A DNA stretch of 64,000 bases from Alphaproteobacteria bacterium (GTDB taxonomy: Bacteria > Pseudomonadota > Alphaproteobacteria > UBA828): assembly GCA_965214705.1 (NCBI GenBank), contig CBDCCI010000002.1:64001-128000 (forward strand), given 5' to 3'. Shown piece by piece: positions 27,338 to 36,712 of the stretch. Position numbers and translations under genes: made by a program. Under the pieces are notes generated by a model. It was not told the DNA's origin. It saw nothing but the letters and a program-made list of their open reading frames with translations, and ran no database searches. Position 1 is the first letter of the stretch. Each line of letters opens with the position of its first letter.

Positions 27338-28748
27338 TCAGTGCCTCGGTGGTATCCTCGCTTGTCATCTTCAGCCCGCCAATCCTGCCGGTTTGACCGG
27401 TCAGAAAAGCTCTCCTCTCAACAAGACGCCCGTCAACTCTCGAGGATTGGCGAGATAATTCGAGACCGCTAATTGTCAAACTATTAGCGAATGCAGAACA
27501 TCATGATGGTGAAGGTGGAACAAGCTAAATTTTGTAATAGTGACTTTTAGAAAACTCCACAATTGAGAATTCAGAAACACAAATTTCTGAAAGGGTACGT
27601 CTCGGCGTCGTTTCTTGCAAACACCGGGGCCAACATTCTTTCTGTCGTACTTTCGGCGCTCGCTCTTCCCAGCACAACCCGACTGGCAAGCCCGCTGCGA
27701 TGTACCTCCTGCTGCGTCCTAGACCGCATCCGTTTTAGACGGAACCATATCCGGCGTTTCGGATGTAGTTCTGACATTCGCTTGGCTCGATGGTGGCGAT
27801 GAGGTGGCCGAGATGGCGCCAAGTGTCCTCGAAGTTGCGCTTCTGCGCGTTGCGCATCCAGTGCTTGATCTTGGCGAAGGTCTGCTCGGTGGGGTTTGAG
27901 GTCGGGTGAGTAGGGCGGCAGGAACCAGAGGCGGGCGCCGGTGCTGCGGATGGCCTGGCGGACCGCCTTGCCTTTGTGGCTTGTGAGATTGTCGAGGATG
28001 ACGATGTCGCCGGGCTTGAGGGTGGGGACGAGCTCTTGGTTGCCCCAGGCCTGGAAGCAGCGTGTGTTGATAGGGCCGTCGAAGACGCAAGGGGCGCTGA
28101 TCCCGTCTGTGCGCAGGGCGGCAAGGAAGGTCATAGTGCGCCAGTGGCCGTGAGGCGCATATCCCTTCAGGCGCTGGCCTCGCTGTGCCCAGCCCCTGAG
28201 CGGTGCCATGTTGGTCTTGATCCAGGTCTCGTCCACGAAGACCGGGTGGTCCGGGTCGAGGTGGCGCTTGAGCGCCTGCCAGCGTGCTCTCTTGCGGGCA
28301 ACGGCGGCGCGCGCCTGCTCAGTCACGAACTGCGGCGCGACAAACAAGATGAGGAGCGCCGAGCTAACTGGCGCAGGGGAGTCGGTGAGAGTCCGACGGG
28401 AAGGAAAGGCTAACCACTACTTCCACCGCGAGCCGTGCGGCGGCATCCGTGAGGGTGCGGTCGAAGCGTCGGTAGCGGCGCGTGTGGCCGGGATGATTGA
28501 GCATCGAAAATGTTATGGTCCGGAGTGCCGAGGTTTTCTCATCGGCCGAAGGCGACACCCGCAGGACCGCTCTGGTGAGGCACTGCGGGGCTCCGCGTTG
28601 TCTGAGGAATCCATGGACGCACGTACACCCCTGTGCCGGGACTCGGGAGGGCTTCGACTTGCCCCGGTGGTCGTACCGGGGCCGCGGAAGAAAGGAGGAT
28701 ATCCGAATCGAAGATGTACGAGTCGAAGCAATCTGATTCGGCCATAGT

Positions 28749-30772
28749 GTGTGCTGGGCAGCGCCCAGATCAGGTGGGTTCAAGTCCCACTGGCGCTCGG
28801 GTAAGGGGCGCCATATCCAAAAGTGGGGGTAATTCCTCACTGGCCGGAGTGAGCCGATAAGCGAAACTCTAAACGGGCACGAAGCCGGAAACGGCGGAGA
28901 CAGCCAAGGGAGGAGCTAAGTTGGTCCACTGTCGAAAGACAACCGGAAGGCAGGGTGTCCACCGCGAGGTGGAATCTGAAGGGCTTGCGGAGAAGTACCG
29001 GGCCGTAATCGAGGGGGCCACCCCATGATGAATCGGTCGGCCAAAGACGGGGCAAGGTCGAGCCGGCACTATGGCGGCGAAGGCGTTCTTACCCACCCGT
29101 CGCACCAAGGTGTTTGCGAGCGGCACGGTACGGAAGATCTGGACGTGACCCCAGGAGGGCTCGCCGCGTTCCCGGGTGGCACCGGGATAACGGACCCTAT
29201 AAGCCGAAAGGCGAAATGGGAAAGGATGCGCGGCGAGCAATCGGACAACCGAATAGTACCTGAAGCCCGGCGAAAGCCGGGTGACCGCGCGAGCGGCGGC
29301 CGTGTGGGCCGGGGAAGTCGGTTGGCAGAGGTGGTCGGCGAGAGACAGCGATGAGTGAGTAAGGACCATGACGCGGACAAGTTCCTTGAGCGAAAGACCC
29401 GGACATCATGGCCCGAGGAGACTCATCGACTGGATCAACCCGGCGGGTGACAGGAAGGTCCACTCACTGGTGGACAAGGTGTACAAGCGGAAGAACCTTG
29501 AGGTGGCCTGGGAAAAGGTGAAGCGCAACCGGGGTGCCGGTGGCGTGGACGGAGAGGATTTAGCGGCGTTCGAGGCATCGCTGGATGCAAATCTCGATCG
29601 CCTGCACCGGGAGTTGCGGGACGGTGAGTATCACCCGCAGCCGGTTCTCCAATGCCTGATCCCCAAGGCGGGCCAGCCGGGGAAGTTCCGCCCGCTCGGC
29701 ATCCCGACAATCTACGACCGGGTGTGCCAGCAGGCGCTGCTGAACCGGCTGGAACCGATCTTCGAGCCGGTGTTCGACGATGCCAACTACGGGTACCGGC
29801 AAGGAAGGTCTGCCCATGGAGCGTTACGCAAGATATGGAGGGAACTGGACGAGGGCAACGAGTGGGTTCTCGATGCGGATTTGAAAGACTTTTTCGGGTC
29901 CGTGGACCACGAAAAGCTCCTCGAACTCGTCAACCAGCGAGTCTCGGATGGCCGGGTATTAGGTCTGCTCAGGCAGATGCTCACGGCCGGGGTGGTGGCC
30001 GACGGTAAGAGGCTGCCGACCGAACAGGGCACTCCGCAGGGCGGCATCGTTTCACCGCTGCTCAGCAATATCTTGCTGACCCCGTTCGATTGGGAAATGC
30101 GTCGTCGCGGCTATCGACTAACGCGATACGCCGATGATTGGCTGATCACGTGCCGCACACGCGGGGAAGCCCGCGCAGCACTGGAGACGGCCAGGCGGAT
30201 TCTGGCAAAGCTGGGTGTGTCCCTCAACGCCGGGAAGACCCGCATTGTCCATGTCAGGCACGGGTTTGAGTTCCTCGGCTACAAGATCAAGCAGGGCGAG
30301 CGGCCTCTCCGGCTGTCGTCCTCCAAGATCAAGAGCGGGGTTCGCGGGGGAGCGCGCTACGCGGTTCCGCGTGAGAAATCCATCCGGCACTTCAAGGACC
30401 AGATTCGCCAGCGTACCCGGCGCAAGGCTCCTGTCAGCACGCAGGAGCTGATTGACGAGATCAACCCGATCATTCGGGGATGGGGCCAATACTATTGCAA
30501 GGCCCACGTCCGCGGGCTCTTCCACCAGCTTGACGGCTGGATCGTGCGGCGGCTCTGGTCGCATCGTCGCAAGCGCTGGCGCAACGCTGGCTGGAAACAG
30601 TTGCCGGAGCGCAAGCTGATCGACGAATACGGGCTTGTTCGCCTGATCTCACTGGTTCCGTCCTTGAACCTTCGTTGAGACACCTTTGTGAAAGCGGCTT
30701 ACGGGAAAACCGTACGGGCCGTTTGAGCGGCGGACGGAGGCTAGCCTCGCGGGGCGCCTCCTCCGACCCGAC
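28749..30772 (+). mobile_element. Inner group II intron
   Basis: 5' GTGTG, 3' CCCGAC; DV AAAGCGGCTTACGGGAAAACCGTACGGGCCGTTT; removal restores CATAGT|AGCGATGAAG in the outer intron. Confidence 0.9.
29368..30678 (+). CDS. ltrA: Group II intron reverse transcriptase/maturase (inner), no endonuclease domain
   Basis: GAGGVDG, RPLGIPTIYDR, GTPQGG, RYADD, FLGY, INPIIRGW. Confidence 0.95.
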   Translation: MTRTSSLSERPGHHGPRRLIDWINPAGDRKVHSLVDKVYKRKNLEVAWEKVKRNRGAGGVDGEDLAAFEASLDANLDRLHRELRDGEYHPQPVLQCLIPKAGQPGKFRPLGIPTIYDRVCQQALLNRLEPIFEPVFDDANYGYRQGRSAHGALRKIWRELDEGNEWVLDADLKDFFGSVDHEKLLELVNQRVSDGRVLGLLRQMLTAGVVADGKRLPTEQGTPQGGIVSPLLSNILLTPFDWEMRRRGYRLTRYADDWLITCRTRGEARAALETARRILAKLGVSLNAGKTRIVHVRHGFEFLGYKIKQGERPLRLSSSKIKSGVRGGARYAVPREKSIRHFKDQIRQRTRRKAPVSTQELIDEINPIIRGWGQYYCKAHVRGLFHQLDGWIVRRLWSHRRKRWRNAGWKQLPERKLIDEYGLVRLISLVPSLNLR

Positions 30773-30890
30773 AGCGATGAAGTCGGCGAACAAGGGGCCG
30801 CGAGGTCCGGCGGAGCCGATGAAGCGAAGGGCCGGAACCGAGAGGAATCCGCGACGCGAAAGCACGCGCCGGACGCAGAGCCGGGAAAGC

Positions 30891-32216
30891 GTGTCCCAGG
30901 CCGCCGAGCGGATACGGCAAACTGCAACGAGGAAGCCGCGGGAGAAGCTGACGGCGCTCTTGCATCATGTCACGCCGGACGCGCTGCGCTGGGCCTTCCA
31001 CGCGCTGAAGCGGGACGCCGCAGCGGGGGTAGACGGCATGACATGGGCTCAGTACGCGGAGGGGCTGGAAGAGCGGCTGCTCGACCTTCACCGTCGCGTA
31101 CAGACCGGAGCGTATCGGGCGCCGCCGGTCCGGCGGGTAGAGATACCCAAGCCAGACGGCGGGACACGACCGCTCGGCGTCGCCGCGCTAGAGGACAAGA
31201 TCGTCCAGAAGGCGGTGACGGAGATTATCCTGACGCCAATTTACGAGCCGGCCTTCCTCGGGTTCAGCTATGGGTTCCGTCCGGGGCGTGGGGCGCACGA
31301 CGCGCTCGATGCTCTGGCGTACGGGATCGACCGACGCCGGGTCAACTGGATCGTTGACGCCGACATCCGTGGGTTCTTCGATAACCTGGACAGGAACTGG
31401 ACGCTCCGGTTCTTGGGCCATCGCATCGGGGATCGGCGGGCACTCCGGCTGATCGCCAAGTGGCTCAACGCGGGCGTCATCGAAGAGGGCGCATGGTCAG
31501 ACACGCTGGTGGGCACCCCGCAAGGGGCGGTGGCTTCGCCGATTCTCGCGAACGTCTACCTCCACTATGTGCTCGACCTGTGGTTCCAGAAATGGCGTTC
31601 GCGGACGGCCTGCGGCGACACGATCATCGTGCGTTACGCCGATGATTTTGTGGTCGGTTTCGAGCACAAGAGCGACGCGGAACGGTTCCTGCGCGACTTG
31701 AAGGCGAGGCTGGCTTTGTTCTCGCTCGACCTCCACCCGGACAAGACGCGGCTCATCGAGTTTGGCCAGCGGGCGATCGCACGCCGGCGGGCGCGAGGCG
31801 AGCGGCGTCCCGAAACGTTCGACTTCCTCGGGTTCACGCATTACTGCCGGACCACGAGGACCGGACGTCCCGGTCTGGGCCGGAAACCGATGCGAAGCCG
31901 GGTCAACCGAACCCTCAAGCGCATCAAGGCCGAACTGCGCCGAAGGATGCACCATGACCGGTACGAGGTTGCAAAATGGCTTGGGAGGGTCGTGGACGGA
32001 TGGCTTCGATACTATGCCGTCCCAACCAGCTTCCCGTACCTCAAGCAGTTCACGTTCCGGCTCGTGCGGCTATGGCGTCGCGTGCTGCGGCGCCGATCCC
32101 AAAAGGACCGCTTCACGCTGGCCAAGGTCGGCGCCCTGGCGCGGGCCTTTTGGCCGCCACTGAGCATCCGCCACCCTTGGCCAAACCAGCGATTTGCCGT
32201 CAACCACTCAAGGTAG
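30891..32216 (+). CDS. ltrA: Group II intron reverse transcriptase/maturase (outer, class E-like)
   Basis: LTALLHHV, AAAGVDG, EDKIVQ, GTPQG, RYADD, ETFDFLGFTH, IRHPWP. Confidence 0.95.
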   Translation: MSQAAERIRQTATRKPREKLTALLHHVTPDALRWAFHALKRDAAAGVDGMTWAQYAEGLEERLLDLHRRVQTGAYRAPPVRRVEIPKPDGGTRPLGVAALEDKIVQKAVTEIILTPIYEPAFLGFSYGFRPGRGAHDALDALAYGIDRRRVNWIVDADIRGFFDNLDRNWTLRFLGHRIGDRRALRLIAKWLNAGVIEEGAWSDTLVGTPQGAVASPILANVYLHYVLDLWFQKWRSRTACGDTIIVRYADDFVVGFEHKSDAERFLRDLKARLALFSLDLHPDKTRLIEFGQRAIARRRARGERRPETFDFLGFTHYCRTTRTGRPGLGRKPMRSRVNRTLKRIKAELRRRMHHDRYEVAKWLGRVVDGWLRYYAVPTSFPYLKQFTFRLVRLWRRVLRRRSQKDRFTLAKVGALARAFWPPLSIRHPWPNQRFAVNHSR

Positions 32217-32351
32217 GAGCCTCGTGCCCTAACGGGCCTGCGGGGATCTGTGCGGGGGGCGCTGGGTAACCGGCGTTCCTACCGCAAAACAGCAGCGTCA
32301 ATCAGGATGAGACGGGGGAGATCGGCGGCCAGGAATGTAGGGAGGGCGTAG

Positions 32352-34801
<2,450 letters not shown>

Positions 34802-35046
34802 GCCGGCCACCACTGCCCCACTCGCGGCCCGCGAGAGATCGACCCCCGCGGGCCGCCTCCTCTCCGCGTCAATCTGGCTGCTCGAAGAAACTGTCGCGCC
34901 GCGACAATCAAAATCCAAAAAGAGCTTGCAATCCCCGCCTCACAGCGGAATCCTCAACGCGCCGTCGCCGCCAGGAATCTCATCCTGATAGCCGCGCGGA
35001 TCTCATGCAGATTGTCGCGCCATACACGAACAGAGTTCTTTTTTTG

Positions 35047-36712
35047 GTAACTGCCCAGGTTGTCTGATTTGTCATTTTGGACCAGTGAGTTGAGGTGCGG
35101 TTCGCTCGGAATTGACGCGAAGGGCTTGACGGGAGTTTCGGAAAATGAATCAACAACGACATGACCAATCCCGAGTCGCCGCGCGGCCCTTCGACGGGGG
35201 CACAGCCCGAAAGTTCCGAGCAGAAGATCGCTCGCCTGGAGGAGGAGAACGCCTGGCTTCGGCAGCAGATTGCGCGGCTGGAGGAACAAGACACGCGTCT
35301 TGTCGAGCGTATCGAGGAGTTGGAACGCCGTCTCGGACTGAGCAGTCGCAACAGCGCCAGGCCGCCGTCGAGCGATGGGTTGAAGAAGCCGAGGGCCAAG
35401 CGGCGAACCCAAAGCCAGCGGGGCAAATCGGGGCGCAAGCCGGGCGGTCAGCCCGGCCACAAGGGCGAGACGTTGCGCCGCACGGATCACCCGGACCGGG
35501 TGGAGAACCACGTTCCGGCTGCCTGCGAGGGATGCGGTTCGTCCCTGTCGGCGGCGGCCACGGCAGGGGTGTCGCACGCCCGCCAGGTCTTCGACCTGCC
35601 CGAGGCGCATGCGCTGGAGGTGACCGAGCACCGGGCGCATGCCAAGTGCTGCGGGCATTGCGGCACGCTGACCCGTGCAGCGTTCCCCGAGGGGGTGTCG
35701 GCGCCGGTGCAGTACGGGTCGCGCATTGCCGGCGTGGCGGTCTACCTTCAGCACGCCCACTTCCTGCCGGAGGACCGGCTGTCGCAGGTGATGGCCGAGC
35801 TGTTCGGCGCGCCGGTGACGGCTGCGACACTGGCGGCGATGAGCGACAGGGCGGCCGATCGGCTGCGGGGAGTTGCCACCCACATACAGGAGCTTGCGGC
35901 GGGCACGGCGCGGGTGAAGCACCTCGACGAGACCGGGTTCCGGATTGGCGGGCAGACGCAGTGGCTCCATGTGATCTGCACGCCGCATCTGGCGGCATTC
36001 CGGGTCAGCGCCAGGCGCGGCGACCTGCTCTCGGGTGTTTCCGGCATCGTCGTTCACGATCACTGGAAGCCGTACTTCACGTTGGAGGGGGTGGAGCACG
36101 GCTTGTGCAACGCCCACCACCTGCGGGAGTTGCAGGCGCTGGTGGACATCGAAGGGGAAGGCTGGGCCGGACGCATGCAGCAGCTCCTGCGCCGGGCCAA
36201 TCGCGCCGCCCGGATCGCGCAGGACAAGGATATCGCCGTTCCGGCGAGGCTTGTGGCGCTGATCGAGCGCCGCTACGACGAGATCATTGCCGAGGCGCTG
36301 GCCTTCCACGAGAGCCAGCCGCCGCTCTCGCCTCCCAAGCCCGGAAAGCGAGGACGCAGGAAGCGGCGGATCGGCCACAACCTCGCCCTGCGCCTGCGCG
36401 ATCGAAAATGCGCGGTTCTCCGCTTCCTGACCGACCCCGAAGTGGCGTTCACCAACAACGAGGCCGAGCGCGACCTGCGGATGATGAAGCTGCGCCAGAA
36501 GATCTCCGGCGGCTTCCGATCCGCAAAGGGGGCCGAGAACTTCGCCATCCTGCGCAGCGTGATCACCACCGCCAGAAAGCAGGGCTGGAACATCATCGAA
36601 GCCCTGATGAGCCCATCGGATCGGCTCATCGCCACCGTCAAGTGCGCGTGAGCCTACCGGGCAAGAACTCCCCAACACCGGAATCACCTCAGTAAGCGAC
36701 CTGGGCAGTTAC
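35047..36712 (+). mobile_element. IS66-family element, single-ORF (ISBst12-like)
   Basis: Perfect IR GTAACTGCCCAGGT; 8-bp TSD TTTTTTTG at 35039-35046 and 36713-36720. Confidence 0.95.
35161..36651 (+). CDS. IS66-family transposase
   Basis: PPSSDG, GGQPGHKG, DETGFR, CNAHHLREL, FTNNEAERDLR, QKISGGFRS. Confidence 0.95.
   Translation: MTNPESPRGPSTGAQPESSEQKIARLEEENAWLRQQIARLEEQDTRLVERIEELERRLGLSSRNSARPPSSDGLKKPRAKRRTQSQRGKSGRKPGGQPGHKGETLRRTDHPDRVENHVPAACEGCGSSLSAAATAGVSHARQVFDLPEAHALEVTEHRAHAKCCGHCGTLTRAAFPEGVSAPVQYGSRIAGVAVYLQHAHFLPEDRLSQVMAELFGAPVTAATLAAMSDRAADRLRGVATHIQELAAGTARVKHLDETGFRIGGQTQWLHVICTPHLAAFRVSARRGDLLSGVSGIVVHDHWKPYFTLEGVEHGLCNAHHLRELQALVDIEGEGWAGRMQQLLRRANRAARIAQDKDIAVPARLVALIERRYDEIIAEALAFHESQPPLSPPKPGKRGRRKRRIGHNLALRLRDRKCAVLRFLTDPEVAFTNNEAERDLRMMKLRQKISGGFRSAKGAENFAILRSVITTARKQGWNIIEALMSPSDRLIATVKCA

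What the first reader, a model, noticed from the sequence alone, without database searches (positions are those of the whole stretch)
28331..28560. Group II intron whose EBS1 matches the IS21 terminal repeat motif
Seen: the outer intron sits at AAGATGAG|A in the IS21 left end, and its loop sequence TCTCATC (28537-28543) is complementary to GATGAG|A. GATGAGA also occurs in other end repeats of this IS21 (near 32305, and reverse complement near 34980). Known: IS21 end repeats are transposase-binding sites, and EBS1-IBS1 pairing determines intron targets. Inference: an intron specialised for a conserved transposon end, either hitchhiking or disabling it, since splicing cannot repair a DNA-level site.
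Basis: partly seen in the sequence, partly recalled or inferred. Interest (0 to 1): 0.7.

Follow-up and report, generated by a model that had tools for sequence, protein, structure and literature searches.

The report
Intron lodged in IS21 transposon end
A mobile group II intron, itself carrying a second intron, has inserted by RNA base-pairing exactly between the two transposase-binding repeats at the left end of an IS21-type insertion sequence; introns living inside transposons are already known, and this is a new site for that habit.

Summary
Window 28331-35024 is an IS21-family element (istA, istB, 7-bp target duplication). A group II intron occupies 28354-32288, 23 bp from the left tip. 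It contains a nested intron at 28749-30772.

An intron-less copy of the same left end elsewhere in the genome fixes both boundaries. Covariation places CTCATC (28538-28543) in a terminal hairpin loop as EBS1. The first 3'-exon base pairs with T28603 (EBS3), not with T28537.

Each IS end has two 23-bp direct repeats, all ending ATGAG. The intron lies exactly at the L1|L2 boundary.

All 3 full IS copies in this genome carry it. A fourth intron copy sits in an unrelated gene at a similar site. L2, R1 and R2 are never occupied. Three same-genus relatives have this IS without the intron, and the intron's nearest relatives target other sites. So the specialisation is local and recent, not a conserved intron-IS21 partnership.

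Introns that home into IS inverted repeats (RmInt2 in ISRm17), and the idea that such introns curb IS spread, are already published.

Whether this insertion cripples the IS is unresolved. Published IstA biochemistry predicts that it does; the copy pattern and an IS66-like analogue in the same genome suggest it may not.

The parts
28324..28330 (.). Left copy of the 7-bp target-site duplication (CACGAAC). The target is an IS630-like (DDE_3) transposase gene on the minus strand.
   Evidence: The same 7 bases follow the right end at 35025-35031. DDE_3 found by Pfam. The reading frame is continuous across the site once the IS is removed in silico.
28331..35024 (+). IS21-family insertion sequence. 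It is 6694 bp with its twintron and 2759 bp without any intron.
   Evidence: Two further copies in the genome share exactly these limits and have their own target duplications. IstA matches NF033546 at 216.7 bits (cut-off 160) and IstB matches NF038214 at 277.3 bits (cut-off 200).
28331..28353 (+). L1, the first 23-bp terminal direct-repeat unit of the left end. Its last 6 nt (28348-28353, GATGAG) are IBS1. A tentative IBS2 (AACA) lies at 28343-28346.
   Evidence: Unit identities are 15-17/23 among L1, L2, R1 and R2. IBS1 is supported by covariation. IBS2 is only a weak signal.
28354..32288 (+). Outer group II intron, 3935 nt including the nested intron and 1911 nt without it. It is IIB-like and its protein has no endonuclease domain.
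   Evidence: Empty site at C1:511930-512152. RF02005 match at 28388-28610, 152.1 bits. A copy lacking the inner intron lies at C2:590966-592876.
28511..28514 (+). Candidate EBS2 (UGUU). Tentative.
   Evidence: Exon positions -10 and -12 covary best with 28512 and 28514 (46 and 53 of 63 sequences). Linker length differs between lineages, so the register is uncertain.
28527..28553 (+). EBS1 hairpin. EBS1 is CUCAUC at 28538-28543, in an 8-nt terminal loop.
28603..28603 (+). EBS3 (U), which pairs with the first 3'-exon base A32289 (IBS3).
   Evidence: 21 of 21 unique sequences are Watson-Crick at this column, with all four bases used.
28714..32216 (+). Reverse transcriptase/maturase ORF of the outer intron. 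In this copy it is split by the inner intron into 28714-28748 and 30773-32216. It is 492 aa, carries YADD, and has no endonuclease domain.
   Evidence: The ORF is intact in the copy without the inner intron. TIGR04416 scores 341.4 bits (cut-off 300). Pfam finds RVT_1 only. YADD confirmed.
28749..30772 (+). Inner (nested) group II intron, 2024 nt, GUGUG...AC, inserted in the 5' part of the outer intron's ORF. Its own RT/maturase ORF is 29368-30678.
   Evidence: Its exact limits come from the copy that lacks it. RVT_1 and GIIM found. TIGR04416 scores 383.8 bits. Many near-identical copies exist elsewhere in the genome.
32216..32249 (+). Domain V of the outer intron: a 34-nt hairpin with a 2-nt bulge.
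   Evidence: Fold. Compared with other families of the class, the helix keeps pairing through double changes (sequences; pairing read by eye).
32251..32286 (+). Domain VI. The bulged A32281 is the candidate branch point, 7 nt from the 3' splice site.
   Evidence: Fold. The ...CCUACCGC... 3' end is conserved across families.
32289..32311 (+). L2, the second 23-bp direct-repeat unit of the left end, now displaced 3.9 kb from L1. It is unoccupied by any intron.
32424..33962 (+). istA (IS21-family transposase).
   Evidence: NF033546. Pfam found no family at E <= 0.001.
33959..34801 (+). istB (helper AAA+ ATPase).
   Evidence: PF01695. NF038214.
34979..35024 (-). Right terminal repeats: R2 (34979-35001) and R1 (35002-35024). 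Both are free of introns in all 3 copies.
35025..35031 (.). Right copy of the target-site duplication (CACGAAC).

Best explanation
Shown. An endonuclease-less, IIB-type mobile group II intron reverse-spliced into, and was copied into, the left terminal inverted repeat of an IS21-family element. The insertion point is exactly the boundary between the first and second 23-bp direct repeats (L1|L2).

Shown. The site is chosen by RNA-DNA pairing:
- EBS1 CUCAUC (28538-28543) pairs with GATGAG, the conserved end block of L1.
- EBS3 U28603 pairs with the first base of L2.
- A short EBS2 (about 28511-28514) probably pairs with AACA at -11 to -8. This last pairing is tentative.

Shown. A second intron later homed into the first intron's RT gene, making a twintron.

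Inferred. The IS end is a good home because it is multi-copy, non-coding and harmless to the host, and because its ATGAG block is held constant by the transposase that reads it. The intron spreads by retrohoming into each new IS copy.

Inferred, from IS5376 biochemistry. By putting 1.9-3.9 kb between L1 and L2, the intron most likely prevents IstA from assembling on the left end, so an occupied copy is crippled. RNA splicing cannot repair a DNA site. The intron would then be a parasite of the IS that also limits it.
For: Anatomy:
- Empty site.
- Intron-less homologous IS copies in 3 same-genus genomes.
- RF02005 at 152.1 bits.
- Domains V and VI fold as expected.
- RT/maturase above the curated cut-off.

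Target pairing:
- EBS1: 41 of 46 flank/loop combinations form at least 5 of 6 pairs, against 6.6% in controls, with column-by-column correspondence.
- The EBS1 hairpin is supported by covariation.
- EBS3: 21 of 21.

Repeat architecture and its meaning:
- Two units per end, 23 bp apart, 15-17/23 identical, all ending ATGAG.
- PMC10122671 (passages): IS21 TIRs consist of direct repeats L1-L2 and R1-R2 separated by 23 bp; IstA needs two complete direct repeats in a TIR to integrate; catalytic subunits bind R1 and structural subunits bind R2.
- The first 23 nt of the intron are 7/23 identical to L2 by my own count from the sequences, which is the random level. No substitute L2 is therefore created.

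Occupancy and activity:
- 3 of 3 full IS copies are occupied.
- The copies are identical or differ by 1 nt, so the events are recent.
- An intact RT ORF exists in one copy.
- The ectopic copy shows that the intron moves on its own.

Precedent:
- Saturation of IS homing sites by introns, and the view that such introns limit IS spread, are published (PMC3522654 passages; PMC5894124 section 5).
Against: - No experiment or read evidence here shows that occupied copies are dead.
- All three occupied copies have intact istA and istB and their own target duplications. Two of them are 100% identical over 6694 bp, nested intron included. Fewer events are needed if the IS transposed while carrying the intron.
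- The only intron-less left end in the genome is a truncated remnant, and it has not been invaded. Homing is therefore not all-conquering.
- In the same genome, an IS66-like element with introns 20 bp inside both inverted repeats did transpose with them. The right-hand 'intron' is an immobile fragment of about 290 nt, yet it is present in two copies that have different 8-bp duplications.
- The IS5376 requirement for two repeats was measured in vitro on a distant family member.
- Specialisation is weak. One of four intron copies is outside any IS. 8 other CAAGATG[AG]GA sites in the genome are empty; one of them is the IS21 remnant.
Confidence: 0.5

Rival explanations
1. The intron and homing site are the same, but the insertion is tolerated. 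The outer 23 bp (L1) suffice, or IstA bridges to L2, and the IS21 keeps transposing with the intron or twintron as cargo. On this view the three copies arose by DNA transposition of an already occupied element, and the intron is a pure hitchhiker that gains a second way of moving.
For: - The three copies have different target duplications and are identical or differ by 1 nt. Two share the nested intron as well.
- The event count is about 4 (2 transpositions, 1 outer homing, 1 inner homing) against about 7 under the homing-only model. This is my count, an inference.
- No intact intron-less copy is left in the genome.
- The IS66-like composite in the same genome demonstrably moved with an intron and an intron fragment inside its inverted repeats, with 8-bp duplications CAACTACT and CATCTCTC.
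Against: - In IS5376, IstA needs two complete, adjacent direct repeats per end (PMC10122671 passages). Here L2 lies 1.9-3.9 kb away.
- IS66 and IS21 transposases read their ends differently, so the analogy is loose.
- Retrohoming can saturate IS sites on its own (PMC3522654 passages).
Confidence: 0.4
2. There is no specialisation at all. The intron has a loose target (roughly CAAGATGRG|A) and landed in the IS end once by ectopic retrotransposition. The overlap with a transposase-binding motif is coincidence.
For: - One of four copies is in an unrelated gene at a 9-of-10 matching site.
- GATGAGA is frequent in the genome, 576 times.
- Relatives of the intron use quite different sites.
Against: - The IS site has the better match: IBS1 6/6 Watson-Crick against 5 Watson-Crick plus 1 wobble, and the candidate IBS2 4/4 against 2/4.
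- It is filled in 3 of 4 left ends.
- If the single-hit version is true, it merges with the hitchhiker rival.
Confidence: 0.07
3. The element is a decayed relic that no longer splices or moves. Its position has no present function.
For: - In the window copy the RT gene is split by the inner intron.
- The ectopic copy has a 5.6-kb insertion in the RT gene.
- Contigs from RNA libraries did not prove splicing.
Against: - Four copies differ by at most 1 nt.
- One copy has an intact 492-aa ORF with YADD.
- Domain V keeps its helix through compensatory changes.
- The EBS1 and EBS3 matches to the exons are perfect.
Confidence: 0.03

Closest known systems
RmInt2 in the inverted repeats of ISRm17 (Sinorhizobium meliloti GR4; PMC4615759, passages seen)
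   Same: - An endonuclease-less IIB-type group II intron whose natural homing site lies in the terminal inverted repeat of an insertion sequence.
- A short EBS2 pairing and a U-A EBS3/IBS3 pair.
- Head-to-tail intron copies occur. They are seen here for the ORF-less family in the same genome, at C1:1859845-1861187.
   Different: - RmInt2 uses both inverted repeats of its IS. Here only the left end is used (0 of 3 right ends occupied).
- The host IS is of the IS21 family, whose ends are double 23-bp repeats, and the site is the L1|L2 boundary.
- The protein lacks the class D C-terminal motif quoted in that paper.
- This copy is a twintron.
- Figure S1 of that paper, which shows where in the ISRm17 repeat RmInt2 sits, could not be seen because supplements are closed.
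RmInt1 in ISRm2011-2, and E.c.I4 in IS3-family elements (PMC5894124 section 5; PMC3522654 passages)
   Same: Introns that live in multi-copy IS elements, can saturate their sites, make rare ectopic insertions, and are proposed to limit IS spread.
   Different: E.c.I4 sits at specific positions in IS3-like transposase genes (PMC3522654), where splicing could in principle restore the mRNA. The RmInt1 site is described only as lying within ISRm2011-2 (PMC5894124). Here the site is a non-coding DNA recognition element that splicing cannot restore.
IS21/IS5376 terminal repeats L1-L2 and R1-R2 bound by an IstA tetramer (PMC10122671, passages)
   Same: Two direct repeats per end, 23 bp apart, with conserved blocks. 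istA and istB are organised in the same way.
   Different: - Sequence similarity to IS5376 ends was not compared.
- The right tip ends in TA, not CA.
- The left end is interrupted by an intron.
Bacterial and archaeal twintrons and introns that home into other introns (titles and abstracts only: PMC4649490, PMC2882425)
   Same: One group II intron is nested in another, and the inner one recurs at the same site in several related outer introns.
   Different: Here the stack is three deep (IS630-like gene > IS21 > intron > intron), and at another locus the order is reversed: the IS21 remnant lies inside an inner-type intron.

Membership tests
Group II intron (ribozyme plus intron-encoded protein) | Domain I-IV RNA matches a curated covariance model at or above its gathering score | tested here: met
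   RF02005 at 28388-28610, 152.1 bits against 49.
Group II intron (ribozyme plus intron-encoded protein) | Domain V hairpin of about 34 nt with a 2-nt bulge, and domain VI with a bulged A 7-8 nt from the 3' end. These features are recalled as defining. | tested here: met
   Fold of 32205-32288: domain V at 32216-32249, domain VI at 32251-32286, bulged UA at 32280-32281. RF00029 did not reach threshold on the window.
Group II intron (ribozyme plus intron-encoded protein) | Reverse transcriptase/maturase encoded in domain IV | tested here: met
   TIGR04416 at 341.4 bits against a cut-off of 300. RVT_1 found. YADD present.
Group II intron (ribozyme plus intron-encoded protein) | EBS1-IBS1 pairing with the 5' exon | tested here: met
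   6/6 Watson-Crick here. Covariation over 46 combinations and 31 distinct EBS1 hexamers.
Group II intron (ribozyme plus intron-encoded protein) | Precise insertion shown by an empty site | tested here: met
   C1:511930-512152. G005, G013 and G014 homologues.
Group II intron (ribozyme plus intron-encoded protein) | Splicing and retromobility in vivo | tested here: inconclusive
   Contigs from three RNA libraries join 28748 to 30773, but the same joined form exists as DNA in this genome. No contig from an RNA library joins 28353 to 32289.
IIB-type target recognition | EBS3 separate from EBS1 and pairing with the +1 base, instead of a delta base next to EBS1 | tested here: met
   The column of T28603 is complementary in 21 of 21. 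The base 5' of EBS1 is T in 35 of 36 sequences while +1 varies.
Bacterial class D introns (RmInt1/RmInt2 clade) | C-terminal motif LX3AX3PXLF[V/A]HW, as quoted in PMC4615759 | tested here: not met
   No match in the 492-aa protein. The nearest stretch is AFWPPLSIRHPW. The class is therefore left open; class E-like is only a guess.
Bacterial class D introns (RmInt1/RmInt2 clade) | No DNA-binding/endonuclease domain | tested here: met
   RVT_1 is the only Pfam domain. The protein ends 39 aa after the region matched by TIGR04416.
IS21 family | IstA transposase and IstB helper ATPase in tandem | tested here: met
   NF033546 at 216.7 (cut-off 160). NF038214 at 277.3 (cut-off 200). PF01695 at 216 bits.
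IS21 family | Terminal inverted repeats made of two direct repeats about 23 bp apart (PMC10122671) | tested here: met
   L1, L2, R1 and R2 are 15-17/23 identical, with invariant GCG.C.A.C...ATGAG. The pattern is conserved in three relatives.
IS21 family | Short target duplication. The range of 4-8 bp is recalled. | tested here: met
   7 bp, 6 bp, and 5 bp (or 6 bp with one mismatch) at the three copies.
IS21 family | Terminal 3' CA dinucleotide at both ends (PMC10122671) | tested here: inconclusive
   The left tip is 5'-TG. In all three copies the shared right tip ends ...CCATA.
IS-inverted-repeat-homing introns (RmInt2 type) | Homing site inside the terminal repeat of an IS | tested here: met
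   23 bp from the tip, at the L1|L2 boundary.
IS-inverted-repeat-homing introns (RmInt2 type) | Both inverted repeats of the IS used as targets | tested here: not met
   0 of 3 right ends are occupied. This holds although R2 has the same IBS1 and +1 base.

The most novel reading that the evidence does not exclude
The intron acts as an RNA-guided brake on the transposon. It targets the one block of each IstA-binding repeat that the IS cannot change without losing its own transposase, and it inserts exactly between L1 and L2. This pulls apart the two sites that the IstA tetramer must hold together, so every copy it enters is permanently disarmed at the DNA level. Taken with the ORF-less introns 20 bp inside both inverted repeats of an IS66-like element in the same genome, and with RmInt2/ISRm17, this would mean that this group of endonuclease-less IIB introns has repeatedly evolved to read transposase-binding ends. 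That would amount to a general intron-against-transposon arms race.
Probability: 0.25. Interest if true: 0.6.

Novelty: new member of a known kind. Interest (0 to 1): 0.35.

Why it matters
It gives a clean, fully mapped natural case of a self-splicing retroelement sitting on the protein-recognition DNA of a DNA transposon. Both boundaries, EBS1, EBS3, an empty site and intron-less relatives are all in hand.

Splicing cannot mend a DNA binding site. Recent IstA structures say that L1 and L2 must be adjacent. The locus therefore makes a sharp, cheap prediction that can be tested: an IS21 left end with anything inserted after bp 23 should be dead. The IS66-like analogue in the same genome shows the opposite outcome, so the pair could tell how much of an IS end each transposase family really needs.

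It does not open a new category. IS-targeting and IS-repeat-targeting introns, and the idea that they restrain IS elements, are already published.

Tried and rejected
Things tried that led nowhere or were rejected:

- Single-sequence folding of 28494-28612 did not place CTCATC in a loop and was no better than shuffles (z = 0.02). I rely on the covariance model and on covariation instead.
- I suspected that the closest relatives (L025-27, RT 76% identical) also sat in an IS21-like end, because their flank contains GGGCGCGAC...CAAGATGA. Pfam showed instead that the intron splits an IS66-family transposase gene.
- tblastn with this IstA and IstB against the 79 related loci hit 5 loci (L033, L034, L037, L055, L090).
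  - In L090 the intron splits istA.
  - In L055 it lies at the 3' end of the IstB match.
  - For L037 I found no inverted-repeat evidence for an IS end, and the flanks look like another intron.
  - None was shown to be at an L1|L2 junction.
- Class assignment failed.
  - The class D motif is absent.
  - Two S. meliloti plasmid loci fetched as possible RmInt1 stand-ins also lack it. No known class D sequence was available for comparison.
  - PMC3552965 and PMC4424553 (passages) gave no testable class markers.
- Read evidence was not decisive.
  - One run search and one laying of four runs' contigs.
  - The 28748|30773 joint appears in contigs of three RNA libraries and in one run of unknown kind. 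It also exists as DNA in this genome, so it is no proof of splicing.
  - The 28353|32289 joint appears only in the run of unknown kind, with 23 letters on one side. That fits the DNA remnant.
- GC skew gave no clear replichores, so I could not ask whether occupied sites lie on the lagging-strand template.
- EBS2 is only tentative.
- Shared-flank analysis of multi-copy relatives gave mixed results. Shared 5' flanks ranged from about 6-30 nt in some groups to more than 400 nt in others. 'Always near an IS tip' is therefore not a rule for the class.
- A speculative link between transposition gap repair and priming of reverse transcription was considered and dropped. The repair synthesis at the left end makes the wrong strand; this is reasoning only.
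- Literature on this specific case: one search ('group II intron', 'IS21', 'inverted repeat') listed 9 papers. By title and abstract start, none is about an intron in an IS21 end, and I did not read them. I claim no more than that.
- Protein-structure, complex, atlas and large protein-database tools were not used, because nothing here turned on them.
Full report
WHAT IS THERE

The window lies at G000:C3:64001-128000. Positions 28331-35024 are an IS21-family insertion sequence.
- istA (32424-33962) scores 216.7 bits on NF033546, against a cut-off of 160.
- istB (33959-34801) scores 277.3 bits on NF038214, against a cut-off of 200, and matches PF01695.
- The element is flanked by a 7-bp duplication, CACGAAC (28324-28330 and 35025-35031).
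- It interrupts an IS630-like DDE_3 transposase gene on the other strand.

Two more copies with exactly the same limits and their own duplications lie on contig C2.

THE INTRON AND ITS LIMITS

Rfam finds one family in the window at gathering level: RF02005 (group II intron domains I-IV) at 28388-28610, 152.1 bits against 49. The intron runs from 28354 (GAGCG...) to 32288 (...CCUACCGCAAA).

Three independent lines fix these ends.
- A truncated IS21 left end at C1:511930-512152 lacks the intron and reads through the junction, 23 + 200 nt at 100% identity.
- Homologous IS copies, 80-88% identical, in three same-genus genomes (G014, G013, G005) also have uninterrupted left ends.
- With the intron removed, the left end aligns without gaps to the reverse complement of the right end, 34 of the first 50 positions identical.

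Downstream features are as expected.
- Domain V (32216-32249) and domain VI (32251-32286, with bulged A32281 7 nt from the end) fold as expected.
- The G.A opposite the catalytic triad is shared by the other families of this class in the genome.
- The helix of this intron keeps pairing through double changes (sequences; read by eye).

The intron protein is a 492-aa reverse transcriptase/maturase. TIGR04416 scores 341.4 bits against a cut-off of 300, YADD is present, and there is no endonuclease domain.

In the window copy, and in one C2 copy, the protein's gene is split after codon 11 by a second intron. This inner intron is 28749-30772, 2024 nt, GUGUG...AC, with its own RT/maturase ORF at 29368-30678. 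The other C2 copy lacks the inner intron, which gives its exact limits.

IS CTCATC THE EBS1 LOOP?

Yes.
- The covariance-model alignment places UUCUCAUC in a hairpin loop.
- On 36 distinct sequences of this hairpin, 98.8% of cells pair, 3 of the 4 inner pairs change on both sides, no shuffle of 500 reaches the observed values, and sliding the partner drops pairing to 46% or less.
- The data set combined five intron families of the same class in this genome with 79 loci from other genomes found with the RT protein. That search matched 437 stretches, of which 373 encode relatives; 80 were kept, giving 79 distinct loci with RT 62-76% identical.
- In this set the six bases upstream of the intron are complementary to loop positions 3-8 in 41 of 46 unique flank/loop combinations (at least 5 of 6 pairs; 31 different hexamers), against 6.6% of mismatched combinations.
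- The five failures include head-to-tail copies.
- Exon positions -1 to -6 each find their best-covarying column at 28538 to 28543, in order. Position -7 has no partner.

Single-sequence folding of the region was uninformative.

T28537 is T in 35 of 36 sequences whatever the next exon base is. The +1 base is instead Watson-Crick complementary to the column of T28603 in 21 of 21 unique sequences, with all four bases used. This is the IIB arrangement, with EBS3 apart from EBS1. A short EBS2 (UGUU, 28511-28514, pairing with AACA at -11 to -8) is likely but weakly supported.

WHAT THE SITE IS

Each end of the IS consists of two 23-bp direct repeats.
- They are L1 (28331-28353), L2 (32289-32311), R1 (35002-35024, minus strand) and R2 (34979-35001, minus strand).
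- All six pairwise identities are 15-17 of 23, against a random mean of 6.25 and P(>=15) = 0.00025.
- The invariant pattern is GCG.C.A.C...ATGAG.
- The same two-unit pattern is kept in the three relatives.

This is the architecture described for the family (PMC10122671, passages). TIRs are made of direct repeats L1-L2 and R1-R2, 23 bp apart. Catalytic IstA subunits bind R1 and structural subunits bind R2. [quoted passage not shown]

The intron sits exactly at the L1|L2 boundary, and IBS1 is the invariant end block of L1.

HOW SPECIALISED IS IT?

Within the genome there are four copies of this intron, differing by at most 1 nt.
- Three are in the three full IS21 copies.
- The fourth is at ...CAAGATGGG|A inside a small gene with a signal-peptide-like start, not an IS. 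It carries a 5.6-kb insertion of other mobile genes in its RT gene.

The units L2, R2 (same GATGAG|A) and R1 (CATGAG|A) are never occupied. The intron-less remnant is also unoccupied. GATGAGA occurs 576 times in the genome. CAAGATGAGA occurs 3 times unoccupied and CAAGATGGGA 5 times unoccupied.

Outside the genome:
- None of 20 same-genus genomes has this intron. The best hit is 76% identical, in G004 with 16 copies, and the three whose flanks I fetched are not IS21 ends: two share a coding-looking flank and one follows another intron's 3' end.
- The closest RT relatives (76%) split an IS66-family transposase gene.
- Other relatives sit in other introns, in istA or istB coding sequence, or in ordinary flanks.

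So the intron is a recent, local colonist of this IS end, with normal ectopic leakage. It is not part of a conserved intron-IS21 partnership.

DOES IT DISABLE THE IS OR RIDE ON IT?

For disabling:
- L2 is moved 1.9-3.9 kb away from L1.
- The intron's first 23 nt do not resemble a repeat unit (7/23, my count).
- The IS5376 data say both units are needed.
- Introns are known to saturate IS sites by homing (PMC3522654, passages).

For riding:
- The three copies have separate target duplications, intact istAB and 0-1 differences. Two share the nested intron over 6694 identical bases.
- No intact intron-less copy remains.
- The empty remnant shows that homing is not irresistible.
- A striking analogue exists in the same genome. 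An IS66-like element (8-bp duplications CAACTACT and CATCTCTC at two loci) carries an ORF-less intron of about 671 nt 20 bp inside one inverted repeat, and a roughly 290-nt 5' fragment of such an intron 20 bp inside the other.
- Because the fragment cannot move by itself and is present in both copies, that composite must have transposed with the introns in place.

GC skew was too noisy to test strand bias, and contigs from RNA libraries could not prove splicing. I put the brake reading at 0.5 and the hitchhiker reading at 0.4.

COMPARISON WITH WHAT IS KNOWN

Targeting of IS elements by group II introns is described as widely used (PMC3522654, passages). [quoted passage not shown] A review states that such introns limit the spread of the IS they occupy (PMC5894124, section 5 read whole).

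The present case works like these. It differs in four ways:
- the IS family is IS21;
- the site is the boundary of two transposase-binding repeats;
- only one end is used;
- this copy is a twintron.

It is not shown to be a class D intron, because the class D C-terminal motif quoted in PMC4615759 is absent. RF02005 also matches a widespread Klebsiella plasmid intron (RT 54% identical) and an S. meliloti pSymB intron (51.5%). The class remains open. Supplementary figures that could sharpen the comparison were closed.

VERDICT

This is a new member of a known kind, of moderate interest, mainly because it offers a sharp test of how much of its left end IS21 needs.

Noticed in passing
L020 1042-4006 (= G000:C1:421541-424505); second copy at G000:C1:2635785-2638746: An IS66-like element (transposase below the NCBIfam cut-off, 83 bits against 180) has an ORF-less group II intron of about 671 nt 20 bp inside one inverted repeat. 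It has a 5' intron fragment of about 290 nt 20 bp inside the other. Both copies have 8-bp target duplications, so the composite transposed with the introns in its ends.
   Followed up: partly
window 28749-30772 and many places in G000: The inner intron has at least 7 full-length copies at 99.7% identity or better. It is nested at the same place, the start of the RT gene, in several diverged outer-type introns. It is therefore an intron that homes into introns.
   Followed up: partly
G000:C1:511100-512152 (L019): A reversed nesting. An RF02005-type intron holds an inner-type intron, which is itself cut after 297 nt by an intron-less IS21 left end. That left end is in turn truncated after 223 bp.
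   Followed up: partly
G000:C1:1859845-1861187: Two ORF-less introns of the IS66-end family lie head to tail. The second starts directly after the first's 3' end. The same behaviour was reported for RmInt2.
   Followed up: no
L018 7765-15278 (G000:C1:1863764-1871277, minus strand): The ectopic copy of the outer intron lies in a small, lower-GC ORF with a signal-peptide-like start. It carries a 5.6-kb insertion in its RT gene, encoding a tyrosine recombinase, an IS91-like Y2 transposase and an IS66-family transposase.
   Followed up: partly
L064-L074 (public MAG record OZ220465.1): Related introns are inserted between domains V and VI of their own family (flank ...GTCCGGATCTG|, EBS1 CAGATC) and also head to tail. 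They form intron arrays.
   Followed up: no
L028, L061-62, L075, L083-85: Introns from different phyla share a 5' flank of about 30 nt (GGTCGATTCCGG...GGCAGAATCGTA-like). In L084 and L085 this flank is preceded by unique sequence and followed by ordinary genes (Calx-beta, WD40). In L061 a DDE_Tnp_1_4 transposase lies downstream. What this flank is remains unexplained.
   Followed up: partly
L132, L141, L148 (genome G004; 16 copies in all): This is the closest DNA relative of the outer intron (76% identical). In two of the three loci looked at, the copies share a conserved coding-looking flank (...GEIVLWAVRW when translated by eye). From memory it resembles the N-terminus of IS6-family transposases. 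This was not tested.
   Followed up: no
window 27571-28330 and 35032-35200, minus strand: The IS21 is inserted in an IS630-like (DDE_3) transposase gene. The IS66-like composite at C1:421541 is inserted in another copy of the same kind of element. Empty sites exist at C1:606927-606934 and C1:874145-874152.
   Followed up: partly
window 31134: This is the only difference between the C2 copy without the inner intron and the window copy. It is C to T and changes Arg to Trp in the RT (PPVRRVEIP becomes PPVRWVEIP).
   Followed up: no
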